Shown in pieces: positions 455 to 36,121 of a DNA stretch of 64,000 nt. Source of the DNA: a virus. The notes beneath the pieces are model-generated. The model ran no database searches. It was not told the DNA's origin and was given only the letters and a program-made list of their open reading frames with translations. The translations under genes and the position numbers were made by a program. The DNA lies in IMG/VR virus record IMGVR_UViG_3300045988_164636, positions 32,001 to 96,000 of that record; one strand, given 5' to 3'. The stretch's first letter is position 1. Each line of letters starts with the position of its first letter.

Positions 455-483
455 TTGAAAAAATAAAAAATTTTTGTTATAAT
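455..483 (+). promoter_or_regulatory. sigma-70-type promoter: TTGAAA, 17-bp spacer, TGtTATAAT (extended -10)
   Basis: TTGAAA at 455-460 and TATAAT at 478-483 with TG at -15/-14. It lies in a ~45-nt block repeated almost exactly at 1196-1240. Confidence 0.6.
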
Positions 484-512: not shown

Positions 513-746
513 ATGCAGACGATTTATAAGATGAAGTTAAATACAATTAATGATGTTAAGTCTTTTGTCGATGCGGCAAATGAATATAAGGGAAGAATTA
601 CTGTCCGCAATATGCACTACGCTGTAGACGGAAAGTCAATCATGGGAATTTTTTCAATTGATTTGTCGGGTATTCTTGATGTAGAATTTGATAATGAACC
701 CAGTAATGAAATACTTGATTTATTTAAGAGTTGGAGAGTTAAGTGA
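513..746 (+). CDS. HPr-like phosphocarrier-domain protein
   Basis: 77-aa ORF with an aaaggaaat RBS. The segment VDGKSIMGIFSIDLSG resembles the conserved (A/D)KSImg..sL.. core of the PTS HPr family. Confidence 0.45.
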   Translation: MQTIYKMKLNTINDVKSFVDAANEYKGRITVRNMHYAVDGKSIMGIFSIDLSGILDVEFDNEPSNEILDLFKSWRVK

Positions 747-1198
747 AGGAAGTTCATATTTTAATAGGAATCCCCGCAAGTGGTAAATCTACTTTTGCTA
801 AAAATTTTGTTTTCTCTCATAAAGGGTACAAAATTGTATCAACAGATGATATAAGATGGAAGTTATTTGGAGATGCAAGTATACAGGGAAATCCTAAGAT
901 GATTTTTGCTATTGCTCACAAAGAAATTATGTCTTATTTAGATAAAGGATATAATGTTATATTTGACGCAACAAATATATCAAGAAAAAATCGAGTAAAT
1001 CTTATTAATTTTTTAAAAGAATGTGAAGTAGAAAATGTTGTGGCGGATTATTTTCCTGTTACAATAGATGTTGCTCTTGAGAGAAATCAGCAAAGAAAAA
1101 GACACGTTCCAGAAAAAGTTATTCATAAGATGTTTGGCAAAATTGAGAAGCCTAAATATGAGGAAGGATTTTCAGAAATAAATTGCCACAACGATTAA
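743..1198 (+). CDS. P-loop kinase, polynucleotide-kinase-like (AAA_33 type)
   Basis: Walker A GIPASGKST, then STDDIR, FDATN and a lid-like ERNQQRKRHVP. The layout resembles the kinase domains of T4 Pnk and Clostridium thermocellum Pnkp. GTG start overlaps the upstream stop. Confidence 0.55.
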   Translation: MKEVHILIGIPASGKSTFAKNFVFSHKGYKIVSTDDIRWKLFGDASIQGNPKMIFAIAHKEIMSYLDKGYNVIFDATNISRKNRVNLINFLKECEVENVVADYFPVTIDVALERNQQRKRHVPEKVIHKMFGKIEKPKYEEGFSEINCHND

Positions 1199-1199
1199 T

Positions 1200-1228
1200 T
1201 TGAAAAAATAAAAAATTTTTGTTATAAT
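1200..1228 (+). promoter_or_regulatory. promoter of the tRNA cluster: TTGAAA-N17-TGtTATAAT
   Basis: TTGAAA at 1200-1205 and TATAAT at 1223-1228. It is a near-identical copy of the 455-483 promoter block. Confidence 0.6.
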
Positions 1229-1281
1229 ATATATACAGTTTGAGAAAGAAATAAAAATTAAAAAATCTCAAACTTAGATAT

Positions 1282-1357
1282 TGCGGGATGATGCAGAGGT
1301 AACATGTTAGCTTAGTAAAACTAATTACAGAGGGTTCAAGTCCTTCTCCCGCCACCA
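1282..1357 (+). tRNA. atypical tRNA-like gene, anticodon undetermined
   Basis: Exactly 76 nt. It has a 6-bp acceptor stem with a 1:72 mismatch, a T arm (gaggg/ttcaagt/ccttc), discriminator A and an encoded CCA. The D stem has only 3 bp. The anticodon arm folds as gttag/ctaat closing a 10-nt loop (cttagtaaaa), or as a longer hairpin with a tetraloop. No canonical 7-nt anticodon loop can be drawn. Confidence 0.45.
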
Positions 1358-1526
1358 GTGGATTTTCATATTCCGCTTTCTACGAGCGATAGCTTGCATG
1401 AGAAGTAGACGGGACCGGTCATCAATGATTGCAAGGTTGAGAACTTCCGCTTCAATTCCTTTAAATAGTTATATCTCCTGCGGGAATATGACAGCCTTGA
1501 AATTGCGATAGAGAGGTAGGTTTTAT
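1358..1526 (+). other. structured non-coding spacer containing a tRNA 5'-half-like segment (1400-1440)
   Basis: gagaagt at 1400-1406 is complementary to the 3' acceptor strand tcttctc at 1586-1592. The hairpin tcaat/gttga at 1422-1440 carries gattgcaag in its loop, echoing ttgattgcaatg at 1551-1562. No plausible ORF is present. Confidence 0.3.
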
Positions 1527-1596
1527 GGGAAGATAGCATAAAAAATGCACTTGATTGCAATGAGGGATATTGGTTGAAATCCAATTCTTCTCACCA
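1527..1596 (+). tRNA. atypical short tRNA-like gene (possible UGC or GCA anticodon)
   Basis: 7-bp acceptor stem gggaaga/tcttctc, U8, a perfect 4-bp D stem gcat/atgc with an all-A 5-nt D loop (no GG), and a T arm attgg/ttgaaat/ccaat (G at position 56). Discriminator A and CCA are present. Only 19 nt are available for the anticodon arm plus variable loop. The best fold is a 4-bp stem with loop attgcaa. Confidence 0.4.
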
Positions 1597-1600
1597 ATAT

Positions 1601-1676
1601 GGAGATGTAGCTCAGATGGTAGAGCAACGGGCTTTTAATCCGTGAGCCAAGGGTTCGAACCCCTTCATCTTCACCA
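1601..1676 (+). tRNA. tRNA-Lys (anticodon UUU)
   Basis: Full cloverleaf: ggagatg/catcttc acceptor, tagctcagatggtagagc D arm, acggg-cttttaa-tccgt anticodon arm, gggttcgaacccc T arm, and encoded CCA. Confidence 0.9.
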
Positions 1677-2102
1677 GCCGCAGTTTCTTATATAATTAAT
1701 CTGAGGGACTAAATTAAAATTGATTATATAGAGAGAATAAACATGGATTTAGTAGATAAACTACCACCGATTGATTAATTCAAGTATGTGGCTCGTGGCT
1801 TAAACTCTCTACAAAAAATAAGGCAAAGTAATCTACAATATGGTATTATCTGTACCAAGGTCTTAACCTCGAGACCTTATAAATAAAGAAGGAGATAATT
1901 GCTCTACTCGTAGTCTCATTAGCTTTAAAAGCAACAGAACGAGGACTAACTAAGTGATTCATGAGTCACTGGTTAGGTTCAGTAGTAGATTTAGCCTGTA
2001 TCGGCTTGGTGTACGAGAAATTGCGTCATAGACGTGGTTTCTGAGGCACGCTGGAGAATTTAGACATCCAGAGGAAGTAGATCCTACTACTGAATTAAAT
2101 AT
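1677..2102 (+). ncRNA. approximately 425-nt structured non-coding spacer between tRNA-Lys and tRNA-Glu (candidate large ncRNA)
   Basis: No ORF. Long-range helix ttcagtagtag (~1978-1988) pairs with ctactactgaa (~2083-2093). Local hairpins include aaggtct...agacctt (~1857-1878), ctcgt...acgag and ctaac..gttag around a near-palindrome gtgattcatgagtcac. Confidence 0.35.
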
Positions 2103-2179
2103 GGCACCATCTTCTAATAAGGTCAGGAAACCGGTCTTTCACATCGGTAATATGGGTTCAAATCCCGTTGGTGTCACCA
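2103..2179 (+). tRNA. tRNA-Glu (anticodon UUC)
   Basis: Acceptor ggcacca/tggtgtc, anticodon arm ccggt-ctttcac-atcgg, T arm atggg-ttcaaat-cccgt, discriminator A and CCA. Confidence 0.8.
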
Positions 2180-2184
2180 AATTT

Positions 2185-2263
2185 ACGTCATTAGCTCAGC
2201 TGGATTAGTAGCAACCGCCTTCTAAGCGGTAGGTCATAGGTTCGAATCCTATATGGCGTGCCA
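2185..2263 (+). tRNA. tRNA-Arg (anticodon UCU)
   Basis: Acceptor acgtcat/atggcgt, D arm tagctcagctggattagtagc, anticodon arm accgc-cttctaa-gcggt, T arm atagg-ttcgaat-cctat, and CCA. Confidence 0.88.
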
Positions 2264-2303
2264 ATCAAAAGAATTTTAATAATTATGGTTATTGATTCTG
2301 TTT

Positions 2304-2379
2304 ACCGGTATAGCTTAGTCGGTAAAGCGTCGGACTGTTAATCCGTAGACCGTAGGTTCAAGTCCTACTACCGGTGCCA
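2304..2379 (+). tRNA. tRNA-Asn (anticodon GUU)
   Basis: Acceptor accggta/taccggt, D arm gctt-agtcggta-aagc, anticodon loop ctgttaa, T arm gtagg-ttcaagt-cctac, and CCA. Confidence 0.85.
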
Positions 2380-2560
2380 ATGTCGTAGTTTGTATGTTTA
2401 CAGCGACTTTAAATAAATTGATTAGACATTCTATCAGGCTCATGTTGTTAGCACCTTTTGTGAAATTAGCTAATCTAAGTTAGCCGCCATCCTGATAAAA
2501 ATAAAAACTTTGCGAACAAAAGAGTGTAAGCGGATAATGCTTAGACATTTCCGTGTATTA

Positions 2561-2636
2561 GCTGGAATAGCATAATTGGTGATGCAACGCTCTTGTAAAG
2601 CGGAGACTGTAGGTTCGAGTCCCACTTCCAGCACCA
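2561..2636 (+). tRNA. tRNA-Thr (anticodon UGU)
   Basis: Acceptor gctggaa/ttccagc, D arm gcat-aattggtg-atgc, anticodon loop cttgtaa, T arm gtagg-ttcgagt-cccac, and CCA. Confidence 0.85.
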
Positions 2637-2641
2637 TTTAT

Positions 2642-2715
2642 GTGGATATAGTTCAATGGTAGAATGCTAGCCTTCCAAGCTAGATATGCGAGCTCAATTC
2701 TCGTTATCCACTCCA
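2642..2715 (+). tRNA. tRNA-Gly (anticodon UCC)
   Basis: Acceptor gtggata/tatccac, anticodon arm ctagc-cttccaa-gctag, T arm gcgag-ctcaatt-ctcgt (unusual T loop), and CCA. Confidence 0.82.
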
Positions 2716-2918
2716 TCAAGAACACCTCTTTCACTCTAAAAAGTTAAATTCTTGGAATTAATGATCAAACAACATAAAATCCGATGTTTTGTATTGGTAG
2801 TTGAAAAATAAAAAGGAATAATATTAGCAACAATATTATTATACTTATATTTTTTGAGTGCCATAGTTTTAGGTTAATAGAGTGGAGAATAAAAGGTTGC
2901 TATTTTATTCTCCGATAT

Positions 2919-2992
2919 TGCACAGTCGCCAAGTGGCAAAAGGCAGTAGACCTTGACTCTACCATTCGCTAGTTCGAATCTAGCCTGTGCAG
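2919..2992 (+). tRNA. tRNA-Gln (anticodon UUG), with C at position 33
   Basis: Acceptor tgcacag/ctgtgca, D arm gcc-...-ggc, anticodon arm gtaga-ccttgac-tctac, T arm gctag-ttcgaat-ctagc. No CCA is encoded directly. The loop reads c-c-TTG-a-c, so the usual U33 is a C. Confidence 0.7.
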
Positions 2993-3081
2993 GACCAACG
3001 TCTTTAGTAACCTCCCCGTGGTGTTGGTTGGGTAATTCTAATACTAAAGTTTCGATAGAGGACACTTCCTCATAAAGCGGC

Positions 3082-3101
3082 TACAGCAAATATTCTTATA
3101 A
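3082..3101 (+). repeat. 20-nt direct repeat copy 1 (tacagcaaatattcttataa) in a hairpin loop
   Basis: Identical 20-mer at 3226-3245. This copy is enclosed by the stem aaagcgg (3074-3080) / ccgcttt (~3124-3130). Confidence 0.8.
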
Positions 3102-3225
3102 ATTGGATTATGAAAAATTTTTTCCGCTTTGTTAATTTATTTAAGACGGACAAACAGCAACTTCAAATGATAAATTATTTTTATGTTAAGCCTCCTTCCA
3201 TCCGTCTTGAAAATAGAAAGAGCCT

Positions 3226-3245
3226 TACAGCAAATATTCTTATAA
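3226..3245 (+). repeat. 20-nt direct repeat copy 2 (tacagcaaatattcttataa) in a hairpin loop
   Basis: Identical to 3082-3101. It is enclosed by the stem agagcc (3220-3225) / ggctct (~3267-3272). Confidence 0.8.
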
Positions 3246-3281
3246 TACTTTTTATTATATTAATTAGGCTCTTGTATTTAC

Positions 3282-3325
3282 AAAAAATGCGGAATGATAA
3301 TATAAAAATCATTCCGCATTTTTTA
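3282..3325. terminator. rho-independent terminator ending the tRNA region (A-tract, hairpin, T-tract; potentially bidirectional)
   Basis: Stem gcggaatga (3289-3297) / tcattccgc (3309-3317), flanked by aaaaaat and attttttt. Confidence 0.75.
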
Positions 3326-3344
3326 ATATAGAAAGGAATTAACT

Positions 3345-3623
3345 ATGGTATCATTTGAATTAAAAGAAAATCAAACTGGATATGAAGTCATAGAAGATTA
3401 TTTTGTAAAAAAATTTAATTTTCGTTTAGGAATTTATGAACAATATCTTGTTGCTTTGGAAATATCATATGATAATGTTTATTGGACAAGAGTTACAGAT
3501 ATATTACAAACAGATTCAATGTATTTTGAATGGGGTATAGATTGGTATGAAGGTGAAAAATATATTCATCTTTTAGGTGTTAAAAATATAGAAGATATTG
3601 ACATTATTGGAGAAGGAGTTTAA
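3345..3623 (+). CDS. hypothetical protein
   Basis: 92-aa ORF with RBS gaaaggaatt. Its stop directly abuts the next start. Confidence 0.5.
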   Translation: MVSFELKENQTGYEVIEDYFVKKFNFRLGIYEQYLVALEISYDNVYWTRVTDILQTDSMYFEWGIDWYEGEKYIHLLGVKNIEDIDIIGEGV

Positions 3624-3624
3624 A

Positions 3625-5073
3625 ATGACAATTACTGAACAACTTACAGATATGTTATCAGAAAAAAGAACTGAAAATGGAGCAATCTCATGGAGTACAA
3701 CACAGTCTAGAATTATAGATATGTTTGCTTCAATAGGCGGCAAAAGAAATGCTTCAACAGAAGAAATAGAAAATATATATCTTGCCGCACGAACAGAAAA
3801 TGCGGATTTAGCTGACAAGATGATTTTCTATTGTAGAGATATTCTTGGGGGACTGGGAGAAAGACGTATTGGAAGAATATTGCTTCATAAATTAGCTTGT
3901 ATTGACCCTGATAAAATGAAAAGAAATTTTAACTTAATTGCAAAGTATGGTAGATGGGATGACTTTTATTGTTTAGAATATACTCCCTGTGAAATGGATA
4001 TGTGGGAATATTTATATGGACAACTTATATTCGATCATATGGAATATACGTTACGCACTGGAAATGTTTCATTACTTGCTAAATGGCTTAAGAGTGAAAA
4101 TGCTTCTTCTGCGGAAGCTAAAAGACTTGCCCGCAAGTTTTGTCAGATAAATAATATCTCTTATAAAAAGTATAGAAAGATACTTTCAGAATTAAGAAAA
4201 TATATAAATGTAATTGAAACTAAAATATCTAAAAATGAATGGAATACAATTGAATATTCAACTATTCCTTCAATAGCTCATCATAAATATTCAAGTGCTT
4301 TTGCAAAACATGATAGAGAAAGATATACAGAATATCTTGAAAAATTAAAATCAAATAGTCCAGAAGTAAAGATAAATGCAAAGACGATAACTCCCGCAAC
4401 AATTATTTCAAATATATCTAATCCAGCGGCAGAAGCTCAGTGGAATGCCTTACCTAACTATTTTACTGGTAACAAGAATATCATTTGTTGTGCAGATGTT
4501 AGTGGTTCAATGAGGTATAGTGGCTGTTGTTCGGGAACTCAACCAATAGATAATTCAATAGGATTAGCAATGTATTGTGCAATGCACAATAATGGAATTT
4601 ATAAAAATAAATATTTGACTTTTACTGATAAACCTACATTAATTGAATATGATTCAAAAAGAGATTTAGCATATAACGTTGGACGAGCAAAAACTCATAT
4701 AGGATATAACACTAATCTCGATGGAATGTTTGAAGCAATTTATGAGGCGGCATCCGCAGCACACAGGTCACCAGAAGGTCTTGTAATTGTTTCAGATATG
4801 GAAATAGATAGCTTTTTAGCAGAAAATAAAACAGATGGCATAGTTGATAAGTGGTCAAAAAAGTTCCATGCTGCTGAGCTTGCATTTTTCCCCGTTGTAT
4901 TTTGGAATGTTGATGCTCGTAATGACTTTACTATATTAAATAAAATTAAAAATCCTTATGTTAAATATGCAAGTGGCAATTCTCCTACAATATTTAGCAA
5001 TCTTGAAACAATTATGGATAAATCTCAGTATGATGCAATAGTAGAAATATTAAATAAGTATGAAGTGGTTTAA
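3625..5073 (+). CDS. DUF2828-type (TROVE/Ro60-related) protein with a C-terminal vWA domain
   Basis: Start chosen at ATG 3625 after RBS gaaggag. The N-terminal TENGAISWSTTQSRIIDMF matches my memory of the TENG..(Y/F).S(T/S)g...LD.F DUF2828 signature. The vWA MIDAS motif ADVSGSM is present. Confidence 0.55.
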   Translation: MTITEQLTDMLSEKRTENGAISWSTTQSRIIDMFASIGGKRNASTEEIENIYLAARTENADLADKMIFYCRDILGGLGERRIGRILLHKLACIDPDKMKRNFNLIAKYGRWDDFYCLEYTPCEMDMWEYLYGQLIFDHMEYTLRTGNVSLLAKWLKSENASSAEAKRLARKFCQINNISYKKYRKILSELRKYINVIETKISKNEWNTIEYSTIPSIAHHKYSSAFAKHDRERYTEYLEKLKSNSPEVKINAKTITPATIISNISNPAAEAQWNALPNYFTGNKNIICCADVSGSMRYSGCCSGTQPIDNSIGLAMYCAMHNNGIYKNKYLTFTDKPTLIEYDSKRDLAYNVGRAKTHIGYNTNLDGMFEAIYEAASAAHRSPEGLVIVSDMEIDSFLAENKTDGIVDKWSKKFHAAELAFFPVVFWNVDARNDFTILNKIKNPYVKYASGNSPTIFSNLETIMDKSQYDAIVEILNKYEVV

Positions 5074-16831: not shown

Positions 16832-18022
16832 ATGTTAAACCCCAAAACTCAAGAAAGAGAACTTTGTTATGTAGTTGAAATTAATGATATTCAGCCTATT
16901 CCTAATTATGATAGAGTTGAATTAGCAACGGTAAATGGTTGGCATATCATCGTTCAGAAGAATCAGTTTAAGGTCGGAGATAAGGCTGTTTATTTTGAAG
17001 TAGATTCAAGAGCACCTGAAAGTGCGGAATTTGATTTTCTTGCCAAGAGAAAGTATAAAATTAAGACTTTAAAAATGTGCGGCTGCATTTCTCAAGGATT
17101 ACTTATGTCTTTTGCAGATTTTGGTTTTGCAGAAGATGAATATAATATAGGAGATTTTTTAACTAAGAAATTAAATGTTACTTATGCTGATGATGAAGAT
17201 AATGCAAGAAAGGCACCTTCCGCAGATAAGTATAAAAAGATGGAAATGCGTCATAAAAAACTTTTTAAAAATTCTTTTGTAAAGAAAGTTATGCAGTATG
17301 AAGTTGGACGTAAGATAATGTTTGTTTTCTTTGGTAAGAAGAAAGATAAGAAGTCAAGTTTCCCTAACTGGGTTGTGAAAACTGATGAAGAAAGAGCCGA
17401 AAACCTACCCTATCTATTTAATAGCAAGAATAGAGAATCTATGCATTGGATGGTTACAGAAAAGATTGATGGAACTTCTGCAACATTCACTTTGAAGAAG
17501 ATAGGTAAGCATAAGTACGATTATCGAGTATGTTCAAGAAATGTATGTTTTGATAAGCCTGATAAGAAATGCTTCTATGAAACAAATGTGTATACTGAAA
17601 TTGCAGAAAGATATAATATGGAGCAGAAACTTAAGCAGCTATTTGAAATAAGTGAAGATATAGTTTTTGTTACAATTCAAGGCGAAATATACGGGAAAAA
17701 AATCCAAAAGAGAGATTATAATATGGAAGGAACAGATCTTGCTATTTTTAATGTTATTTTTGGTTATAAAGATGGTTCAACAGAAAGGTTAAATCCTCGT
17801 GAAATGGAAGTCATTATGAAGATATATAATCTTCCTACTGTTCCAGTCCTTGATTATAACTTTACTTTACCTGTAACTTGTGATGAAATGTTAGAATATG
17901 CGGCAAGTGAAAAATCAAAAATAGACGGCGGTATGCGTGAAGGTGTTGTATTAAGAAGTTTTGATGGTAAGCAATCTTTTAAGGCTGTATCAAGAGATTT
18001 CTTACTCAAATATCATAGTTAA
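16832..18022 (+). CDS. RNA ligase, DraRnl (DRB0094) type
   Basis: The N-terminal OB-like module (VVEINDIQPIPNYDRVELATVNGWHIIVQKNQFKVGDKAVYFEVDS) is typical of the DRB0094 family as I remember it. Nucleotidyl-transferase motif I TEKIDGTS (KxDG) is present. Confidence 0.7.
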   Translation: MLNPKTQERELCYVVEINDIQPIPNYDRVELATVNGWHIIVQKNQFKVGDKAVYFEVDSRAPESAEFDFLAKRKYKIKTLKMCGCISQGLLMSFADFGFAEDEYNIGDFLTKKLNVTYADDEDNARKAPSADKYKKMEMRHKKLFKNSFVKKVMQYEVGRKIMFVFFGKKKDKKSSFPNWVVKTDEERAENLPYLFNSKNRESMHWMVTEKIDGTSATFTLKKIGKHKYDYRVCSRNVCFDKPDKKCFYETNVYTEIAERYNMEQKLKQLFEISEDIVFVTIQGEIYGKKIQKRDYNMEGTDLAIFNVIFGYKDGSTERLNPREMEVIMKIYNLPTVPVLDYNFTLPVTCDEMLEYAASEKSKIDGGMREGVVLRSFDGKQSFKAVSRDFLLKYHS

Positions 18023-18874: not shown

Positions 18875-19204
18875 ATGATAAGTAGATTTTTTTGTTGTGA
18901 ATGTGGTCAGGAAGGAATACCAATCTTCCGCAAACCAAGCTGTAAAAGAGAAAGAGGTCATTTAAAAAATTTATTTTGTGTACATTGTGGACGAGAAACT
19001 AATCATGTCGAGATAAAAGAAAATGACTTTGAATATACCTATGAAGATTTTGAAAAAGAATTTAAATTAGGTAGATTTATTAATGGAAAACGCATTCCAG
19101 TTAATGAATTGCAATACTGTAGCAATATTAATTGTAGTAGATATGTAAATGGCAAATGTTGGGATGCCGCAAATATTTCAAACTGTAAATATAAGGAGGG
19201 ATAA
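18875..19204 (+). CDS. zinc-ribbon protein
   Basis: CCECG...CVHCG pairs plus a Cys-rich C-terminus. An extended -10 (tgtTAAAAT at 18834-18841) lies upstream. Confidence 0.5.
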   Translation: MISRFFCCECGQEGIPIFRKPSCKRERGHLKNLFCVHCGRETNHVEIKENDFEYTYEDFEKEFKLGRFINGKRIPVNELQYCSNINCSRYVNGKCWDAANISNCKYKEG

Positions 19205-19205
19205 A

Positions 19206-19760
19206 ATGTCTATCTTAATAACATCAGATCTTCACTTGAATCATGATAAAGATTTTATTTATGGCTCAAGAGGATATTCTACTGTAAAAGAAATGAATGA
19301 AGATATAGTAACGAAGTGGAACATGACTATTGATAATAAAGATACAATTTATGTTCTCGGTGACATTATGATGGGTAAGGACATAGAAACTGCCGCACAC
19401 TATTGGAATAAATTAAAGGGCGATAAAAAAATAATCTTAGGTAATCATGATTCTAAGAAAAAAATTGAATTGTATCAAACCTGCCCTAACACAGAAGTAA
19501 TTGGATATGGCGGAATTATTAAATATAAAGGGTATAGATTTTATTTATCTCATTATCCTGCTCTTTGCGGAAATGCAGATGATAGAGATTTAAAATCTTG
19601 TACAATTAATTTATGTGGACATAAACATACTAAAAATGCTTTTGAAGATTGGAATTTAGGAAAAATTTATCATATTGAATTAGATACTAATTTTATGTAT
19701 CCTTGTGACTTGGACTTAATTTTATTTAATATAAAGGAGAAAATGAGAAATGACTTTTAA
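19206..19760 (+). CDS. metallophosphoesterase
   Basis: Start at ATG 19206 after taaggaggg. Motifs SDLHLNHD, GDIMMG, GNHD and GHKH. Confidence 0.7.
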   Translation: MSILITSDLHLNHDKDFIYGSRGYSTVKEMNEDIVTKWNMTIDNKDTIYVLGDIMMGKDIETAAHYWNKLKGDKKIILGNHDSKKKIELYQTCPNTEVIGYGGIIKYKGYRFYLSHYPALCGNADDRDLKSCTINLCGHKHTKNAFEDWNLGKIYHIELDTNFMYPCDLDLILFNIKEKMRNDF

Positions 19761-20565: not shown

Positions 20566-21753
20566 ATGAAAAAATTTTATGATACCTGTAGTCTTTTAGA
20601 TCTACAGGAAAAGGCTTTTGAGGAAGATTTTTATATTAGTATTATTACTTTAAGAGAATTAGAAAATATAAAAACCTCTGCAAATAAAGATGCGGAAACC
20701 AAATACAAAGCCAGAAAATTGTCTAAACTTTTACAAAAATATGCAGATAAATATGAAGTAATTTTAGACCAAACTAATGATATAATTACCGCAGATGATA
20801 GAATAATATCTGCCGCACAGTCAGTGGAATGTCAATTTGTAACCAAAGATATGTGTTGTTGGAATTTAGCAAAAGCCAAACATTTAAATATGGATTTTAT
20901 AATTGATAACACTATTGATGGTTATACTGGTTTCAAAGAAATATTTGTTCCAACAGAAGAAAATTTAGCTTATTTTTATGAGCATATGAATGAAAACATT
21001 TTTGATTTATTACGGAATGAATATTTAATCATAAAAACTGCGGAAGATGGTAAGATTGGTCCATATATTTGGACAGGAACAGAATATCAAGAAATTGGGT
21101 ATCCTAATTTTTGTTCAGAACAGTTTGGAAAAATAAAACCAAAAGATGAATATCAACTTGCTGCGATGGATTGTCTTAGCCGCAATCAAATAAGTATGGT
21201 AAGAGGCGGCGCCGGAACAGGCAAATCATTTCTATCTTTAGCTTATTTATTTCATCTTTTAGAGGAAGGTCAAATAGATAAAATCATTGTCTTTTGTAAT
21301 ACTATAGCTACAATTGGATCCGCTAAGCTTGGATATTACCCCGGAAGCAAGGATGAGAAGCTTTTAGACTCTCAAATTGGTAATATCTTGACCAGTAAAT
21401 TAGGTGATAGTTTTGCTGTTGAACAAATGATTGAATCTGGAAAATTACTTTTATTACCATTTTCTGATTTAAGAGGTTTTGATACAACAGGTATGAGAGC
21501 AGGAGTTTATATAACAGAAGCTCAGAATCTTGATATTAATCTTATGAAGCTGGCATTACAAAGAATTGGTGATGATTGTATTTGTATTTTAGATGGTGAT
21601 TCAGATACTCAGGTTGATGATTCTAATTATGCAGGTATTAATAATGGTATGAGAAGAACTTCTGAAATTTTCAGAGGTCATGATATATATGGAGAAGTTA
21701 CACTTCAAAGAGTTTATCGAAGCAAAATTGCGGAAATAGCTGAGCAAATGTAG
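20566..21753 (+). CDS. phoH: PIN-domain / PhoH-like ATPase
   Basis: N-terminal PIN-like region (FYDTCSLLD...). Walker A GGAGTGKS is followed by PhoH-type motifs. Confidence 0.75.
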   Translation: MKKFYDTCSLLDLQEKAFEEDFYISIITLRELENIKTSANKDAETKYKARKLSKLLQKYADKYEVILDQTNDIITADDRIISAAQSVECQFVTKDMCCWNLAKAKHLNMDFIIDNTIDGYTGFKEIFVPTEENLAYFYEHMNENIFDLLRNEYLIIKTAEDGKIGPYIWTGTEYQEIGYPNFCSEQFGKIKPKDEYQLAAMDCLSRNQISMVRGGAGTGKSFLSLAYLFHLLEEGQIDKIIVFCNTIATIGSAKLGYYPGSKDEKLLDSQIGNILTSKLGDSFAVEQMIESGKLLLLPFSDLRGFDTTGMRAGVYITEAQNLDINLMKLALQRIGDDCICILDGDSDTQVDDSNYAGINNGMRRTSEIFRGHDIYGEVTLQRVYRSKIAEIAEQM

Positions 21754-24342: not shown

Positions 24343-25394
24343 AAGAGAATGAAATTGGCTGTGTAATACCTTTCAAGTTTACCACTTGGGTAACTTTATA
24401 TAAACCATCTTAGTCATTTTTGAATGAGATATAGATGGAATTAATATAAAGTTGCTAACGGGGAAACCTGACCAGATAGTGCTGAAGGTAATCCCGTGGC
24501 AAACATTATTTAATTCCTTATTATTATTAAAAGGAGAAAACATATAATGATAGGAATTTATAAAATCACTAACAAAAATACAGGTAAAGTTTATATCGGG
24601 CAATCTGATAATATTGAAAGAAGATTAAACGAACACAAACAAAAAAGAACTCAAACAATAGATAATTATATCAATGTTTTGGGTGTAGAAAATTTTGATT
24701 TTGAAATTTTGGAAGAATGTAAGAAAGAAGATTTAGATTTAAAAGAAAAGGAATATATTAAAAAATATAATTCTCAAATTAAAGGATATAATATTCAACA
24801 AGGTGGGTATAATAATTCTCAAGGTGAAGGTAATGGAAGAGCTCTTTTAACGGAGGCAGATGTTATCTTTATCAGAACAGCTTATCAAAATCATGAATCG
24901 CCAAAAGAAATTTTTGAAAAATATTTTTCAGACAAAATAACAAAAAATAATTTTCAAAGTGTTTGGCAAGGAAGAACTTGGATAAATATTATGCCAGAAG
25001 TTTATACTGAAGAAAATAAGAAATATTATATTTCTGGACAACAAAAAGCAAAATCTTCTCTTTCAAAAGAAGAAGTTCTCTTATATAGACAATATTATGT
25101 TGATCATACAAGAGAAGAAGTTTATCAAAAGATGTTATCTGATAAAGGCGATATTTTAAAAAAAGCTACTTTTTTTAAAATATTAATAGGTGATGTCAGA
25201 GATAATAGTATTTATAAAGAAATTCCAATTTATAAAAAATCAAAAAAGTGTTGGGAATTAAATAATGAGGCTGTATCGACTATCCCCGAATCGGGGGAGT
25301 AGAGCTATTATTGGTACATAGTTCGAAATGGTATCCTTAGTTTTATAGACTAAGTAAGAGATAGTCAGGGCTTATAGAAATATAAGAATAACCG
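24343..25394 (+). mobile_element. group I intron (1052 nt) carrying a GIY-YIG homing-endonuclease ORF
   Basis: The 5' exon ends in U (gct) and the intron ends in G (ccg). R/S-like core elements tatcgactat (25274-25283) and agatagtcag (25359-25368) can form P7. Joining the exons restores ITSDA-DSDGLDIELLLVTFFF. Confidence 0.8.
24547..25302 (+). CDS. GIY-YIG homing endonuclease (intron-encoded)
   Basis: GIYKITNKNTGKVYIGQSDNIERRLNEHK. RBS aaaggagaaaac. The C-terminus runs into the intron core. Confidence 0.85.
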   Translation: MIGIYKITNKNTGKVYIGQSDNIERRLNEHKQKRTQTIDNYINVLGVENFDFEILEECKKEDLDLKEKEYIKKYNSQIKGYNIQQGGYNNSQGEGNGRALLTEADVIFIRTAYQNHESPKEIFEKYFSDKITKNNFQSVWQGRTWINIMPEVYTEENKKYYISGQQKAKSSLSKEEVLLYRQYYVDHTREEVYQKMLSDKGDILKKATFFKILIGDVRDNSIYKEIPIYKKSKKCWELNNEAVSTIPESGE

Positions 25395-31227: not shown

Positions 31228-32190
31228 ATGATCTGGATAATTTTATGTGTTATAATATGCGGCGGCATCATAGTGGCAGCCGCAATTATAAGTAGTAAAT
31301 TAATAAAGAAGATAAAAAAACAATATAATGAACATTTTGAATTATCTAAAGATTTAGAAAAGTTAAAAAATGAAATCTCAAAATGGGATAAAGAAAGAGA
31401 ACAACTTTTCATTTCTAAATTTAAATTGATAACAGAAGTAAATAATTTAAATGAAAAAAGAAACAATTATGTAAATGATATTATAAAAGTAAAAGACGAA
31501 ATCCTTGCGGGCTATCAATCTTATGAAGATAATTTAAATAAGCAATATTTATCTATTGAAGATGATTTTGATAAAAAAATAAGTAATTTACAAGAACGAT
31601 ATGAAAATACTTGTAGTCAGTATTTCTGTGAATTAGAAAAAGCAAAGTTGGAATTAGACAATATAAAAGAAAAAAGAAAAAGAACAGTAGAAGTTTTAAA
31701 TAGAGAACAAACAGAATTAGAAGATGAAGAAAATCATCGTTTAAAAATTACAGCGGCAGATATTGCAGATATAAATACATTAGAAAAAATCCGTCCACAA
31801 CTTTCTAAACCAAGAGTATTAAGTATGTTAATATGGAGTACTTGGTTCCAAAAACCTATGACAGAACTATGCAATAAATTAATTGGTACTTCTGTAAAAA
31901 GTGGGGTTTATAAGATTACTAATATTTTGACTAATGAATGTTATATAGGTCAGGCGACCGATCTAGCTAAAAGACTAAAGGAACACGCTAAATGCGGCTT
32001 AGGAATAGATACTCCGCAAGGACATAAATTATATAAAGCAATGCAAGAAAATGGATTATGGAACTTCTCTTGGAGTGTTTTAGAACTCTGTCCTTCCGCA
32101 GAATTAAATGCGAGAGAAAGTTTTTATATTGATTTATTTAATTCTTATAATTACGGTTATAATCAAAATCAAGGCATAAGAAAAAGTTGA
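31228..32190 (+). CDS. membrane-anchored coiled-coil protein with a C-terminal GIY-YIG-like (T5orf172/DUF4041-type) nuclease domain
   Basis: N-terminal TM segment IWIILCVIICGGIIVAAAIISS, a long Lys/Glu coiled coil, then GVYKITNILTNECYIGQATDLAKRLKEH. Confidence 0.6.
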   Translation: MIWIILCVIICGGIIVAAAIISSKLIKKIKKQYNEHFELSKDLEKLKNEISKWDKEREQLFISKFKLITEVNNLNEKRNNYVNDIIKVKDEILAGYQSYEDNLNKQYLSIEDDFDKKISNLQERYENTCSQYFCELEKAKLELDNIKEKRKRTVEVLNREQTELEDEENHRLKITAADIADINTLEKIRPQLSKPRVLSMLIWSTWFQKPMTELCNKLIGTSVKSGVYKITNILTNECYIGQATDLAKRLKEHAKCGLGIDTPQGHKLYKAMQENGLWNFSWSVLELCPSAELNARESFYIDLFNSYNYGYNQNQGIRKS

Positions 32191-35055: not shown

Positions 35056-36121
35056 AGAGAGTTACTGGTCTCTTGATATGTAAATATCAAGCAAACATTG
35101 TAGTAAAAACGGGAACCCTAAACCAGTTTGGCAAGGGAATCCGAACGGAAGTTAATTTGTAATAAAGTTAACACGTGCAACGCGTGGTTTTGAAACTAAA
35201 TAAGGAGTGTATATCGCATATGATAACCCAAGAAAATAAATTATTAATAGTAAAAATGTATAATGAAGGAAGTTCGTTATCAGAATTATCAAGATTATTT
35301 GCTATTGATACAACAGTTATAAAATCAATTTTAAATGAATATAATATTCATATAAGGACAAGAGGAGAACAAACTCGTCTGACAAATATGAAGAGAAGTA
35401 AATCAGTTGATAATTTTTATTTCTCTAATATAAATACAATAAATAAGGCGTGGATGTTAGGCTTTCTTGCCGCAGATGGTAGTATAGCAAAAGAAAGAAA
35501 TACAATTTCAATTGCATTAAGTACAGTAGATAGAGAAATTTTAGAAAAAATAAAAGAAGAAATTAAAATAGAAAAAACTATTTATGATAGTGAAACTAAT
35601 AATGGATTTTTAGTATCAAAATTAGAATGGTCAAGCTTACAACAGAAAACAGATCTAAGTAAATATGATATAGTAAATAATAAAACTTATTTACCAATTC
35701 ATTTGCCACATTTTGATAATGATAACCTAACGTTAGCTTATATTTTAGGGTACTTTGATGGAGATGGCTCTATTACTATCAATAATAATAAGTATTTAAG
35801 ATTTAGGATCTGCTCTCATAGAAATGAAATTCTGCAAGATATAGCTAATTTTATTGAAAAAAAATATGGAGCGACATATTCTTTAAATCAAGACAAAAGA
35901 AAATTATATGAATTAAGTATTTCTACTACTTATGCTATACCTTTATTAAATGACTGTTATAATTTAAATTCTATCCATCTTGATAGAAAATATCAAAAAT
36001 ATTTAGAATATAAAAGAAACCAAGAGACTACAACATCCATGTAATTGGGATGAGAGGGTACGCTGAACTTATAGGAAACTATAAGAAGTAAAGGATAAAA
36101 AGCCTTTACGATAACAAATTG
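35056..36121 (+). mobile_element. group I intron (1066 nt) carrying a LAGLIDADG homing-endonuclease ORF
   Basis: The 5' exon ends in U (act) and the intron ends in G (ttg). Joining the exons gives the Walker A GAAKTGKTT. A 25-nt block (36063-36087) is shared with the minus-strand intron at 58958-58982. Confidence 0.7.
35220..36044 (+). CDS. LAGLIDADG homing endonuclease (double-motif)
   Basis: MLGFLAADGS and ILGYFDGDGS motifs. ATG 35220 follows taaggag. The track ORF begins at GTG 35175. Confidence 0.8.
   Translation: MITQENKLLIVKMYNEGSSLSELSRLFAIDTTVIKSILNEYNIHIRTRGEQTRLTNMKRSKSVDNFYFSNINTINKAWMLGFLAADGSIAKERNTISIALSTVDREILEKIKEEIKIEKTIYDSETNNGFLVSKLEWSSLQQKTDLSKYDIVNNKTYLPIHLPHFDNDNLTLAYILGYFDGDGSITINNNKYLRFRICSHRNEILQDIANFIEKKYGATYSLNQDKRKLYELSISTTYAIPLLNDCYNLNSIHLDRKYQKYLEYKRNQETTTSM

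What the first reader, a model, noticed from the sequence alone, without database searches (positions are those of the whole stretch)
1200..3325. A 2.1-kb non-coding tRNA island: 7 canonical tRNAs, 2 aberrant tRNA-like genes and about 1.4 kb of structured spacer
A promoter at 1200-1228 and a terminator at 3282-3325 bracket a region with no credible ORF. It holds canonical tRNAs for Lys(UUU), Glu(UUC), Arg(UCU), Asn(GUU), Thr(UGU), Gly(UCC) and Gln(UUG). All of these read A-ending or AT-rich codons. Two elements have good acceptor and T arms plus CCA but cannot form a normal anticodon arm. Element 1282-1357 has a 10-nt loop (or an extended hairpin) in place of the anticodon loop. Element 1527-1596 has an all-A D loop, G56 in the T loop and only a 4-bp anticodon stem. 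A third partial copy (1400-1440) repeats the acceptor 5' strand and the 'gattgcaa' loop. Acceptor/T-arm mimics without a decoding loop could be substrates or decoys for CCA-adding enzymes, aminoacyl-tRNA synthetases or host anticodon nucleases. They could also be Y-RNA-like partners of the neighbouring TROVE-like protein.
Basis: partly seen in the sequence, partly recalled or inferred. Interest (0 to 1): 0.7.

Follow-up and report, generated by a model that had tools for sequence, protein, structure and literature searches.

The report
Phage tRNA operon with Y-RNA-like hairpins
This 2.1-kb stretch of a gut phage is one long RNA-only operon that makes seven ordinary tRNAs, two odd tRNA look-alikes, a self-cleaving ribozyme and three small hairpin RNAs, and those hairpins, not the look-alikes, are the likely partners of the Ro60-like RNA-binding protein encoded next door.

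Summary
The observation largely holds. Window 1200-3325 lies between a promoter and a terminator, has no conserved ORF, and holds seven canonical tRNAs plus two tRNA-like genes that pass Rfam's tRNA threshold but fail default ARAGORN.

Element 1 (1282-1357) sits where more distant relatives have a canonical tRNA-Met(CAU). Here it has an 8-nt anticodon loop.

Element 2 (1527-1596) is a sporadic 70-nt cassette. It folds as a reduced tRNA(UGC) with a normal 7-nt loop. Its stems are conserved by pair-preserving changes.

The claimed "third partial copy" is one strand of a covarying helix in a separate structured RNA (1358-1524).

The spacers resolve into modules:
- an HDV-like theta ribozyme (2993-3049) fused to tRNA-Gln;
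- a 245-nt structured RNA (1857-2100);
- an ultraconserved 167-nt spacer (1677-1843);
- three hairpins (3072-3273) carrying a CAGCAA motif.

The neighbouring DUF2828 protein has a Ro60/TROVE fold. CAGCAA hairpins are strongly enriched upstream of its homologues in 79 phage loci. Long forms are YrlA-like. So a Y-RNA link is supported, but mainly for these hairpins, not for the two tRNA-like genes.

Verdict: a new variant of known kinds, moderately to highly interesting.

The parts
1200..1228 (+). sigma-70-type promoter (TTGAAA-17-TATAAT, TG-extended). It is the same about 40-nt sequence as at 455-483.
   Evidence: conserved in L001-L003
1282..1357 (+). Element 1: a tRNA-like gene with a cloverleaf, U1.C72, encoded CCA, and an 8-nt anticodon loop UUAGUAAA closed by C31.A39. 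It sits where relatives have tRNA-Met(CAU).
   Evidence: Rfam tRNA 34.3 bits. ARAGORN -ps80 calls tRNA-?(agta). Same-position genes compared.
1358..1524 (+). Structured RNA module 'sp1'. It also follows tRNA-Leu(UAA) in L057/L058.
   Evidence: RNAalifold on 8 sequences gives 48 pairs, 7 with compensatory double changes. Distribution.
1527..1596 (+). Element 2: a 70-nt reduced tRNA(UGC)-like cassette with encoded CCA. It is present only in the window, L052 and L060.
   Evidence: Rfam tRNA 37.5 bits. ARAGORN -ps80 calls tRNA-Ala(tgc). Absent in L001-L003. Three copies compared. T-arm survey.
1601..1676 (+). tRNA-Lys(UUU)
1677..1843 (+). Ultraconserved 167-nt spacer 'sp2', bounded by the CCA of the upstream tRNA and the 5' end of tRNA-Glu. 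Non-coding; no convincing fold.
   Evidence: 92-100% identical in 12 loci, including L004/L005 whose proteins are about 55% identical. z = -0.76.
1844..2104 (+). Window-specific 261-nt insertion flanked by AATATGG repeats. It contains a structured RNA of about 245 nt (1857-2100).
   Evidence: Absent from the 98%-identical L052. 85-89% homologues upstream of tRNA-Leu(CAA) in L056-L058. z = -4.26. Pair-preserving changes.
2103..2179 (+). tRNA-Glu(UUC)
2185..2263 (+). tRNA-Arg(UCU). Among relatives it was seen only in L060.
2304..2379 (+). tRNA-Asn(GUU)
2380..2560 (+). Conserved spacer 'sp4' (95-97% in 5 relatives), with a possible internal promoter (TTGCGA-17-GATAAT at 2510-2538).
   Evidence: z about 0
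2561..2636 (+). tRNA-Thr(UGU)
2642..2715 (+). tRNA-Gly(UCC)
2716..2917 (+). Spacer 'sp5' with two strong hairpins: 2821-2845, followed by a T-run, and 2888-2917.
   Evidence: z = -2.81; 86-99% in 6 loci including L005
2919..2992 (+). tRNA-Gln(UUG), the only tRNA here without an encoded CCA
2993..3049 (+). HDV-like (theta-type) self-cleaving ribozyme. P1 is 2993-2999/3023-3029 (G1.U), P2 is 3002-3009/3042-3049, P3 is 3010-3012/3020-3022, and the putative catalytic C is 3038. The cleavage site lies directly after G73 of tRNA-Gln.
   Evidence: drz-agam-1 scores 30.6 bits, E 0.0014. A descriptor scan finds it only next to tRNAs. L005 has fully compensated P1 and P2.
3072..3132 (+). Y-RNA-like hairpin Y1: a 9-bp stem, then CUA-CAGCAA and an AU-rich loop
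3140..3211 (+). Y-RNA-like hairpin Y2: an 11-bp stem and CAGCAA at 3155-3160. The stem covaries with the L001/L003 version.
3218..3273 (+). Y-RNA-like hairpin Y3: an 8-bp stem and CAGCAA at 3228-3233
   Evidence: (identical copy in L052)
3282..3325 (.). Bidirectional intrinsic terminator: a 12-bp stem at 3287-3298/3308-3319, flanked by an A-run and a T-run
3625..5073 (+). Ro60/TROVE-like protein (Pfam DUF2828+DUF7788), preceded by a conserved 92-aa ORF at 3345-3623
743..1198 (+). P-loop kinase (AAA_33/KTI12; resembles PSTK and the Pnkp kinase domain) directly upstream of the operon

Best explanation
Window 1200-3325 is one promoter-to-terminator RNA operon of a gut phage of about 124 kb, probably infecting Bacillota. 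The primary transcript is cut into modules, mainly by the host tRNA-processing enzymes (inferred).

1. Seven decoding tRNAs supply A-ending codons.
2. tRNA-Gln, which lacks an encoded CCA, gets its 3' end from a cis-acting HDV-like theta ribozyme that cuts right after G73. The 2',3'-cyclic phosphate must then be removed and CCA added. This step is inferred; the phage encodes a metallophosphoesterase, a DRB0094-type RNA ligase and a P-loop kinase.
3. The same cut releases a 3' segment that carries three short stem-loop RNAs with a single-stranded CAGCAA next to the 5' strand of the stem. These are the Y-RNA-like ligands of the Ro60-like protein encoded just downstream. Binding is inferred from position, strand, motif and homology of the long forms to YrlA.
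4. Element 1 occupies the position of the phage's tRNA-Met(CAU) gene and shares its acceptor stem and D loop. Homing-endonuclease cassettes and variant alleles circulate at this position. The allele here keeps the cloverleaf and CCA, so it should be processed like a tRNA. Its 8-nt loop has no CAU, so it most likely no longer decodes Met.
5. Element 2 is a sporadically present, selectively maintained, reduced tRNA(UGC)-like cassette. It enters the tRNA pathway but lacks the G3.U70 alanine identity pair and the normal elbow. It is either an unusual GCA decoder or, given its YrlA-type T arm, a tRNA-shaped non-decoding RNA.
6. The remaining spacers are discrete conserved RNA modules of unknown role: sp1, the ultraconserved sp2 and the 245-nt RNA.
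For: Operon frame:
- Promoter and terminator are present and conserved, and there is no conserved ORF.

tRNAs.

Ribozyme:
- Partial Rfam hits.
- By inspection it has the complete nested P1/P1.1/P2/P3 fold with a G1.U wobble and a C in J4/2.
- A strict descriptor gives 8 hits in 1.1 Mb. Seven directly follow a called tRNA. The eighth (L006) lies 42 nt from the end of its short contig, so no tRNA can be called there.
- L005 has different but complementary P1 and P2.
- It matches the published theta-ribozyme context: a gut phage, a tRNA without CCA, and a DRB0094-type ligase in the genome (PMC10879173).

Ro-like protein: Foldseek top hits are Ro60 structures, including phage phiLo Ro60.

CAGCAA hairpins:
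- 175 motifs lie in the 1 kb upstream of the gene in 79 loci, against 21 expected from the reverse strand.
- 52% have stems of at least 8 bp, against 8% on the reverse strand (Fisher p 1e-25).
- 73 of 83 loci have at least one such hairpin.
- All four Watson-Crick pair types, and G.U pairs, occur at each stem position.
- The long form in L117 hits Rfam YrlA at E 2e-8 and folds with T, closed-stem and D arms.

Element 1:
- L004, L005, L053 and L059 have canonical tRNA-Met at the same position.
- The acceptor stem covaries: G2-C71, G.U and A-U at one pair, and G6-C67 and A6-U67 at another.

Element 2:
- Across three copies, all 5 stem substitutions preserve pairing and the loops are invariant.
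- Its T arm is shared with YrlA-like RNAs.
Against: - No expression, processing or binding data exist. Every RNA boundary is inferred.
- The window's three hairpins have no YrlA hit and lack the GNCGAA/CGAA motif of known bacterial and phage Y RNAs.
- At 56-72 nt they are shorter than the 80-130 nt of characterised Y RNAs.
- A DNA-level role for the CAGCAA repeats, such as a phage-specific promoter or operator, is not excluded. Strand bias and G.U pairs argue for RNA.
- The ribozyme scores below Rfam's gathering thresholds (30.6 vs 37; 20.3 vs 44).
- For element 1, signs of relaxed constraint exist in relatives: U55C in L054, CAA instead of CCA in L002, and a broken acceptor stem in L001/L060. 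It may simply be a decaying gene.
- L057 has sp1, sp2 and the 245-nt RNA but no Ro-like gene in the locus held, which extends about 10 kb downstream of the island.
Confidence: 0.6

Rival explanations
1. Elements 1 and 2 are neutral relics. They are tRNA genes inactivated by mobile-element traffic (homing endonuclease cassettes, anticodon-loop insertions and their deletion scars), still co-transcribed but without function.
For: - Element 1 is highly polymorphic among phages about 90% identical. There is a canonical CAU allele with a GIY-YIG cassette (L053, L059), a CAU allele with a broken acceptor stem (L001, L060) and the 8-nt-loop allele (window, L052, L054, L002, L003).
- L054 has C55 and L002 has a CAA end.
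- Anticodon loops are insertion sites in this lineage. An HNH-like ORF sits in tRNA-Glu of L001. The 6-nt-loop Glu alleles of L053 and L002 carry TTTTAC, as at the insert's 3' end.
- Element 2 is present in only 3 of about 10 relatives.
Against: - Every stem substitution seen in elements 1 and 2 preserves pairing, including two-sided changes in the acceptor stem of element 1.
- Among its 8-nt-loop copies, element 1 is 92-94% identical. That equals the coding neighbours and exceeds sp1 at about 80%.
- The loops of element 2 are invariant in three copies.
Confidence: 0.25
2. Elements 1 and 2 are tRNA mimics that act as decoys or sponges for host anticodon nucleases, synthetases or the CCA-adding enzyme.
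For: - The phage carries an RNA end-healing and sealing kit: a kinase at 743-1198, a ligase at 16832-18022 and a phosphoesterase at 19149-19760. This suggests pressure from tRNA-cleaving defences.
- Both elements keep the acceptor stem, T arm and CCA.
- Off-size anticodon loops recur in these phages.
Against: - Element 2 has a regular 7-nt loop with U33 and A37.
- The odd loop of element 1 is not conserved beyond close relatives, and sister phages carry a canonical allele.
- Off-size loops are rare overall: 8 of 414 tRNA calls in 80 loci.
- There is no direct evidence for any target.
Confidence: 0.12
3. Element 2, and perhaps element 1, is itself a tRNA-shaped Y RNA bound by the Ro60-like protein.
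For: - The AUUGG-N7-CCAAU T arm of element 2 occurs in only 2 of 368 distinct canonical tRNAs. It does occur in YrlA-like RNAs (L117 twice, L088) and in the CGAA-containing minihelix inserted in tRNA-Leu(UAA) of L052 and L005.
- L127, L129 and L136 have tRNA-like RNAs with CUACAGCAA in an arm that replaces the anticodon arm.
- M. smegmatis YrlA is cut by RNase P and receives CCA (PMC4201824).
- Element 1 has UUACAG(A) at the variable loop, and its CAU allele has GUCGAAG there.
Against: - Neither element has a CAGCAA or GNCGAA motif, and there is no YrlA hit at E<=10.
- The arm order is that of a normal tRNA, not permuted.
- Element 2 is absent from most relatives that keep the Ro-like gene.
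Confidence: 0.15
4. Element 1 is a functional frameshift-suppressor or quadruplet-decoding tRNA.
For: - The 8-nt loop is kept in five loci, with a compensating change in L003 (C31-G39, loop UUCGUAAA).
- Read as NGU, the anticodon would remain Thr-type in both versions.
- An independent 8-nt-loop tRNA (CUUAGUGA) occurs in L005.
Against: - No candidate frameshift site was looked for or seen.
- The body derives from tRNA-Met, whose synthetase needs CAU (established knowledge).
- There are signs of relaxed constraint, such as U55C in L054.
- The allele is dispensable in sister phages.
Confidence: 0.06

Closest known systems
Bacterial and phage Ro60 (Rsr)-Y RNA systems: YrlA/YrlB (Chen et al. 2014, PMC4201824; Rfam RF02553) and Thermus phage phiLo Ro60 with Yrl1/Yrl2 (PMC12135203)
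   Same: - A Ro60-fold protein.
- Small RNAs encoded just upstream on the same strand.
- Each RNA has a terminal stem next to a conserved single-stranded motif.
- Several tandem copies are present.
- Related phages have long forms with a permuted tRNA-like domain (T arm, closed stem, D arm) that hit the YrlA model.
   Different: - The protein is Pfam DUF2828/DUF7788, not TROVE.
- The motif is CAGCAA, not GNCGAA/CGAA.
- The window's copies are only 56-72 nt and have no tRNA-like domain.
- The RNAs form the 3' end of a tRNA operon and are separated from the last tRNA by a ribozyme.
- Binding is untested.
Theta ribozymes: minimal HDV-like ribozymes at tRNA 3' ends in gut Caudoviricetes (Kienbeck et al. 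2024, PMC10879173)
   Same: - A minimal HDV-like fold.
- G1 lies directly after the tRNA discriminator base.
- The tRNA lacks CCA.
- The phage comes from the gut.
- A DRB0094-type RNA ligase is in the genome.
   Different: - It is attached to a sense tRNA-Gln(UUG), not a suppressor, Met or Leu tRNA.
- The junction varies among relatives: G73|G, G73-C|G and G73-CCAA|G.
- It is followed by Y-RNA-like hairpins and a Ro-like gene.
- It scores below Rfam thresholds for the older HDV-like families.
- The authors' own descriptor was not available to run.
Stable non-tRNA RNAs inside phage tRNA clusters: T4 species 1 and 2 RNAs (from memory, not checked here), and the ROOL/GOLLD RNAs found near phage tRNAs
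   Same: Conserved non-tRNA RNA modules (sp1, sp2, the 245-nt RNA) are interleaved with tRNA genes and bounded by tRNA ends. The sister phage L003 carries a bona fide ROOL RNA in the same island (257.6 bits).
   Different: No sequence or model match to ROOL, GOLLD or any Rfam family in the window. The modules are smaller (167-245 nt).
Frameshift-suppressor tRNAs with 8-nt anticodon loops (sufD/sufB2 type; established knowledge)
   Same: Element 1 has an intact cloverleaf with one extra loop nucleotide.
   Different: It arose in a tRNA-Met body. There is no evidence of charging or decoding, and the allele is polymorphic.

Membership tests
tRNA (Rfam RF00005), elements 1 and 2 | Covariance-model score at or above the gathering score (29 bits) | tested here: met
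   34.3 bits (1282-1354) and 37.5 bits (1527-1593). Canonical neighbours score 53-76 bits.
tRNA, elements 1 and 2 | 7-nt anticodon loop with U33 and a purine at 37 on a 5-bp stem | tested here: not met
   Element 1 has the 8-nt loop UUAGUAAA with C31.A39, even in relaxed ARAGORN. Element 2 has the 7-nt loop AUUGCAA with U33 and A37, but its stem has 4 pairs plus A.G.
tRNA, elements 1 and 2 | Elbow contacts: G18G19 in the D loop with U55C56 in the T loop | tested here: inconclusive
   Element 1 has AGAGGUA and UUCAAGU, which are compatible. Element 2 has D loop AAAAA and T loop UUGAAAU, which are not compatible.
tRNA-Ala identity, element 2 | G3.U70 pair in the acceptor stem | tested here: not met
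   G3-C70 in all three copies. Each copy carries a G.U pair elsewhere: 2:71 in the window, 4:69 in L052 and 6:67 in L060.
tRNA, elements 1 and 2 | Aminoacylation and use on the ribosome | not testable with these tools
   Needs tRNA-seq, acid gels or in vitro charging.
HDV-like / theta ribozyme, 2993-3049 | Nested double pseudoknot (P1, P1.1, P2, P3) with a G1.U wobble and a C at the first position of J4/2 | tested here: met
   Inspection. The descriptor scan recovers it. L005 has fully different but complementary P1 and P2.
HDV-like / theta ribozyme | Cleavage site within +/-5 nt of a tRNA 3' end (the criterion of PMC10879173) | tested here: met
   G1 at 2993 follows G73 at 2992. Seven of the 8 descriptor hits lie -1 to +1 nt from an ARAGORN tRNA end. 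The eighth is at a contig edge.
HDV-like ribozyme families in Rfam | Score at or above the gathering threshold | tested here: not met
   drz-agam-1 scores 30.6 against 37. HDV-F-prausnitzii scores 20.3 against 44.
HDV-like / theta ribozyme | Self-cleavage activity | not testable with these tools
   Needs in vitro transcription and a C3038U control.
Ro60/TROVE protein, 3625-5073 | HEAT-repeat ring plus a C-terminal vWA domain | tested here: met
   AF2 model with pLDDT 86 and pTM 0.86. Foldseek hits 9kop, 1yvr, 2i91 and 9l5y at E 6e-9 to 3e-7 over about 500 columns, with TM 0.50-0.64.
Ro60/TROVE protein | Sequence-level match to TROVE or to solved Ro60 chains | tested here: not met
   Pfam finds only DUF2828+DUF7788. 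phmmer against PDB gives nothing below E 0.1. NCBIfam gives nothing.
YrlA (Rfam RF02553), window hairpins Y1-Y3 and elements 1/2 | Covariance-model match | tested here: not met
   No YrlA hit at E<=10 in 1150-3400. The related phage L117 gives 43.3 bits, E 2e-8, below the gathering score of 69.
YrlA / Yrl RNAs | GNCGAA(N0-1)G or CGAA motif near the 5' end | tested here: not met
   None in 1200-3625. A different motif, CAGCAA, takes the equivalent place.
YrlA / Yrl RNAs | Encoded within 4 kb of the Ro60 gene on the same strand | tested here: met
   Y1-Y3 lie 350-550 nt upstream on the + strand. The same holds in 73 of 83 loci.
YrlA | Permuted tRNA-like domain (T arm, closed acceptor-like stem, D arm) | tested here: not met
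   Absent from the window's Y1-Y3. Present in L117 and L080.
Y RNA (general) | Bound by the Ro60 protein | not testable with these tools
   Needs EMSA or RIP-seq.

The most novel reading that the evidence does not exclude
DUF2828-family proteins, found in hundreds of gut-phage contigs, are Ro60 homologues built into tRNA operons. They are partnered by a previously undescribed class of Y RNAs marked by CAGCAA: short hairpins as in this window, and YrlA-like tRNA mimics in other phages. In this lineage a theta ribozyme separates the tRNA part of the transcript from the Y-RNA part. tRNA-shaped cassettes with the same AUUGG T arm are further members of this Ro-linked RNA repertoire, that is, tRNA/Y-RNA chimeras. 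These cassettes are element 2 and the minihelix inserted in the anticodon loop of tRNA-Leu(UAA) in the sister phage. Together with the phage's kinase, phosphoesterase and ligase, they would form a phage-borne tRNA quality-control and repair system.
Probability: 0.3. Interest if true: 0.8.

Novelty: new variant of a known kind. Interest (0 to 1): 0.62.

Why it matters
Ro60-Y RNA particles are known from animals, some bacteria and a few phages, but what they do in phages is barely understood.

This work finds that a large, unannotated protein family has the Ro60 fold. It sits inside tRNA operons in about two thirds of the loci sampled. It is preceded by a recognisable RNA motif.

That gives a concrete, testable handle on a widespread phage RNA system, and it links three topics usually treated apart: phage tRNA islands, self-cleaving theta ribozymes and Y RNAs.

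It also shows that 'spacers' in phage tRNA islands can be discrete conserved RNAs. One is 96-97% identical between phages whose proteins are about 55% identical.

Finally, aberrant tRNA genes there are shaped by homing-endonuclease traffic. This matters for anyone who annotates or counts phage tRNAs.

Tried and rejected
- blastn of the island against 50,697 GenBank phages found only generic tRNA similarity.
- A 17-mer from element 1 scanned over IMG/VR gave 45 loci, all but one of them chance hits.
- I tested whether the 880-nt insert after element 1 in L052/L053 is a group I intron. There is no Rfam intron hit at E<=1, so it is treated as a free-standing GIY-YIG cassette that brings a replacement acceptor 3' strand.
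- I tested whether the ultraconserved spacer sp2 is a small ORF (MDLVDKLPPID). This is rejected, because codon 3 is TAA in L054, L004 and L005.
- I looked for covariation in sp2. It varies too little for a conclusion.
- I looked for antisense matches of sp1, sp2, sp4, sp5 and the 245-nt RNA to the rest of the window. All were at chance level.
- I searched the island for the GNCGAA/GGUCCGA Ro-binding motifs and found none.
- A sequence search of the neighbouring protein against PDB gave nothing. Only the fold comparison revealed Ro60.
- I tried to build a covariance model of the CAGCAA hairpins. MAFFT aligned the 5' strand and the motif but not the 3' strands, because loop lengths vary. No model was built. 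I used strand and position controls in a script instead.
- I first misread the two differences between the window and L052 copies of element 2 as one compensatory pair. They are two separate pair-preserving transitions, G2.U71 to G2-C71 and A4-U69 to G4.U69.

Full report
**1. The observation**

Rfam's tRNA model finds these seven at 53-76 bits. It also finds two weaker hits above its gathering score of 29: 1527-1593 (37.5 bits) and 1282-1354 (34.3 bits).

The promoter-like site at 1200-1228 matches 11 of 12 consensus positions and has an extended TG. It repeats the site at 455-483. The hairpin plus T-run at 3287-3325 is plain in the sequence. No ORF in the region exceeds 73 aa, and relatives differ by many indels. 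So the outline of the finding is right.

**2. Relatives**

No GenBank phage is close. I fetched relatives in three ways.
- Through the neighbouring protein and the upstream kinase: L001, L002, L003, L052, L053, L054, L059 and L060, which are 77-100% identical in DNA.
- Two more distant relatives, L004 and L005, with proteins about 55% identical.
- Through a spacer 20-mer: L056-L058.

All share the gene order HPr-like gene, P-loop kinase, tRNA island, Ro-like gene. The island itself is a mosaic. tRNA genes and spacer blocks come and go as cassettes with sharp boundaries at tRNA ends.

**3. Element 1 (1282-1357)**

At the same position, directly after the conserved promoter and leader, L004 and L005 have a canonical tRNA-Met(CAU). 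It shares the U1.C72 mismatch, the acceptor sequence and the D loop with element 1.

The close relatives carry three alleles.
- A fully canonical tRNA-Met with loop CCCAUAA, scoring 58.9 bits (L053, L059). A cassette of about 880 nt with a GIY-YIG-like ORF follows it and brings a replacement acceptor 3' strand.
- A CAU allele whose acceptor stem is reduced to 3 pairs (L001, L060).
- The allele seen here, with the 8-nt loop UUAGUAAA (window, L052, L054, L002). L003 has UUCGUAAA together with a change that restores C31-G39.

Within the 8-nt-loop allele every stem difference preserves pairing. Pair 2:71 is G-C, G.U or A-U, pair 6:67 is G-C, G.U or A-U, and pair 51:63 is G.U or A-U. These copies are 92-94% identical, like the flanking coding DNA. 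Against this, L054 has C55 and L002 ends in CAA.

Relaxed ARAGORN still gives an 8-nt loop. My reading is a tRNA-Met-derived gene at a homing-endonuclease hot spot. The cloverleaf is kept, but Met decoding is most likely lost. Whether it has a new role is open.

**4. Element 2 (1527-1596)**

It is a precise 70-72-nt insertion before tRNA-Lys. It is present in the window, L052 and L060 and absent from L001-L003, L053 and L054.

Relaxed ARAGORN folds it as tRNA-Ala(UGC) with a 7-nt loop AUUGCAA. It has a short anticodon stem, a D loop of five A and a T loop UUGAAAU. Among the three copies there are five stem substitutions, all pair-preserving, and one change in the variable region. All loops are identical. 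This points to selection on the fold.

It lacks G3.U70, so ordinary alanine charging is doubtful (established AlaRS rule).

Its T arm pattern ATTGGTTNANNNCCAAT occurs in 10 distinct contexts in all loci held. Two are among 368 distinct canonical tRNAs. The other eight are the three element-2 copies, a 50-nt minihelix inserted in tRNA-Leu(UAA), and YrlA-like RNAs.

**5. The 'third copy'**

Positions 1400-1440 lie in a conserved module of about 167 nt (1358-1524). In L057 and L058 this module follows a different tRNA. RNAalifold on eight sequences predicts 48 pairs, and 7 of them have two-sided compensatory changes. The 'gattgcaa' stretch is one strand of such a helix, 1393-1398 with 1430-1435. 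This is a structured RNA of unknown function, not a tRNA fragment.

**6. Other spacers**

- **1677-1843.** It is 92-100% identical in 12 loci. In L004 and L005 it is 96-97% identical although the neighbouring tRNAs are only 75-83% identical there. Conservation starts exactly after the CCA of whatever tRNA lies upstream and stops at the first base of tRNA-Glu. It is not coding, and it has no significant predicted fold (z = -0.76).
- **1844-2104.** This is an insertion absent from the 98%-identical L052. Its core has z = -4.26 and has 85-89% homologues in L056-L058 in front of a different tRNA. Changes there preserve pairing, and one hairpin has been swapped for another.
- **2380-2560 and 2716-2917.** Both are conserved among close relatives. 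They may hold internal promoters and terminator-like hairpins.

**7. Ribozyme**

Directly after G73 of tRNA-Gln, the only tRNA here without an encoded CCA, Rfam gives sub-threshold hits to two HDV-like families.

By inspection the sequence forms these elements:
- P1, GACCAAC with GTTGGTT, including the G1.U wobble;
- P2, 8 bp;
- P3, ACC with GGT;
- L3, UCCCCGU;
- P1.1, GG with CC;
- J4/2, beginning with C3038.

A strict descriptor written for this fold gives 8 hits in 1.1 Mb. Seven lie within 1 nt of a tRNA 3' end and the eighth is at a contig edge. The L005 copy has entirely different but complementary P1 and P2 around the same core.

This matches the published theta ribozymes of gut phages, including the co-occurring DRB0094-type RNA ligase (PMC10879173). 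The tRNA/ribozyme junction differs among relatives.

**8. The neighbour and the Y-RNA question**

Pfam sees DUF2828+DUF7788. An AlphaFold model built from 32 homologues (pLDDT 86) matches Ro60 structures end to end, including the Ro60 of Thermus phage phiLo.

I examined 80 further IMG/VR loci with homologues 36-46% identical.
- 45 of the 70 loci with enough upstream DNA have a same-strand tRNA within 3 kb upstream, often within 500 nt.
- The stretch before the gene repeatedly holds hairpins built the same way: a 5' stem strand, 0-4 nt, CAGCAA, 25-120 nt, then the 3' stem strand.
- In 79 non-redundant loci, CAGCAA occurs 175 times in the 1 kb upstream, against 21 expected from the reverse strand.
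- 52% of these motifs have a closing stem of at least 8 bp, against 8% on the reverse strand (p 1e-25).
- 73 of 83 loci have at least one such hairpin.
- Stems differ in sequence but keep pairing, and G.U pairs point to RNA.

Long forms (L117, L080) fold into a terminal stem, a T arm, a closed stem-loop and a D arm. L117 aligns over the full Rfam YrlA model at E 2e-8.

The window has three short forms, Y1 3072-3132, Y2 3140-3211 and Y3 3218-3273. They lie between the ribozyme and the terminator. They lack the tRNA-like domain and the GNCGAA motif of known YrlA RNAs.

I therefore place them as a new variant of Y RNA. They work like Y RNAs by inference but are not members of YrlA. They are the most likely partners of the Ro-like protein.

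**9. Context**

The window also encodes these proteins:
- a DRB0094-type RNA ligase (16832-18022);
- a metallophosphoesterase (19149-19760);
- a PhoH/PIN protein (20566-21753);
- the kinase at 743-1198, which resembles PSTK and the Pnkp kinase domain;
- several homing endonucleases.

This fits both the need to heal the cyclic-phosphate end left by the ribozyme (inferred) and the heavy mobile-element traffic seen at the tRNA genes.

**10. Verdict**

The finding pointed at a rich region, but its emphasis needs shifting.

The two aberrant tRNA-like genes are real. One is best explained as a derivative of the phage's tRNA-Met gene. The other is a maintained, reduced tRNA-like cassette. Their function is unresolved.

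The more informative content is in the 'spacer':
- a theta ribozyme;
- at least two covarying structured RNAs;
- one ultraconserved element;
- a triplet of Y-RNA-like hairpins tied to a Ro60-fold protein family that is widespread in gut phages.

All functional statements are inferences from sequence, structure prediction and comparative genomics.

Noticed in passing
L005 3208-3330; L052 about 3105-3225 (sister phage of the window; outside the window itself): A tRNA-Leu(UAA) gene carries a 50-nt insert exactly between U34 and A35. The insert looks like a tRNA minihelix: acceptor-like stem GCGAAAU/AUUUCGC containing CGAA, T arm AUUGG-UUCAAC(C/U)-CCAAU, and an ACCA end. Rfam scores the whole as tRNA at 43.2 bits. 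It could be a tRNA/Y-RNA chimera, or an intron-like element removed by tRNA-processing enzymes.
   Followed up: partly
L003 794-1382: A bona fide ROOL RNA (257.6 bits, gathering score 99) sits inside the homologous tRNA island of a sister phage, between tRNA-Tyr and tRNA-Asn. The window has none.
   Followed up: no
L001 3829-4698; L053 2105-2180; L002 1418-1494: - In L001, tRNA-Glu is interrupted in its anticodon loop by about 870 nt with a 246-aa ORF that gives weak HNH hits. No ribozyme was recognised there.
- In L053 and L002, the same gene has a 6-nt loop UUUUAC with compensated stems. This resembles the 3' end of that insert and may be a deletion scar.
   Followed up: partly
L052 6611-7489; L053 about 805-1680; L059 from 1160: A cassette with a GIY-YIG-like ORF is inserted in the 3' acceptor strand of the element-1 gene. 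It supplies a new acceptor 3' strand (TTCCGCAA), and the old one (CTCCCGCCACCA) remains downstream. Rfam finds no group I intron there.
   Followed up: partly
window 1677-1843: This 167-nt non-coding spacer is 96-97% identical between phages whose proteins are about 55% identical. The borders are sharp at the flanking tRNA ends. There is no predicted structure, no ORF and no antisense target in the window.
   Followed up: partly
window 455-483 and 1200-1228: The same promoter block of about 40 nt (TTGAAAAAATAAAAAATTTTTGTTATAATATATATAC) occurs twice. Parts of it (AAAATAAAAA) recur at 2497-2507 and 2804-2814 inside the island, which suggests internal promoters.
   Followed up: no
window 16832-18022, 19149-19760, 20566-21753, 743-1198: An RNA end-healing and sealing kit is encoded as separate genes: a DRB0094-type RNA ligase with an OB domain, a calcineurin-like phosphoesterase, a PhoH/PIN protein, and a PSTK/Pnkp-like kinase.
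   Followed up: partly
window 24547-25302, 31228-32190, 35175-36044, 51561-52691: Three GIY-YIG ORFs and one LAGLIDADG homing-endonuclease-like ORF lie among replication genes, for example between the gyrase B and gyrase A genes and after the NrdD-like ORF. This phage is rich in mobile endonucleases.
   Followed up: no
L004 3342-3418; L052 2770-2846 and 3530-3606; L005 3096-3173: These are 77-nt tRNAs with Leu anticodons (UAG, CAA, CAG). They have a class-II-type D arm but no long variable arm. The L005 copy of the UAG gene has an 8-nt loop, CUUAGUGA.
   Followed up: partly
L057 1256-1316: A tRNA-like element with an acceptor stem, D arm and T arm but no anticodon arm lies directly upstream of the 245-nt structured RNA. 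The start of the window insertion (1844-1880) is a decayed remnant of this junction.
   Followed up: no
L127, L129 (5504-5618), L136: These are tRNA-like RNAs with an open acceptor stem, D arm and T arm. The anticodon arm is replaced by a branched arm containing CUACAGCAA, so the CAGCAA motif sits on a tRNA-shaped body.
   Followed up: partly
window 1325-1331; L053 and L059, same position: At the junction of the variable loop and the T stem, the 8-nt-loop allele of element 1 reads UUACAG(A), like the start of the Y-hairpin motif UUACAGCAA. The canonical CAU allele reads GUCGAAG, which fits the YrlA motif GNCGAAN0-1G. This may be coincidence and is unexplained.
   Followed up: no
L130, L134, L135, L138, L139 (tRNA-? 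acca); L074, L096, L097 (tRNA-? aa): Further tRNA genes with 8-nt or 6-nt anticodon loops occur in more distant Ro-like-gene loci. They make up 8 of 414 ARAGORN calls and 3 distinct sequences.
   Followed up: no
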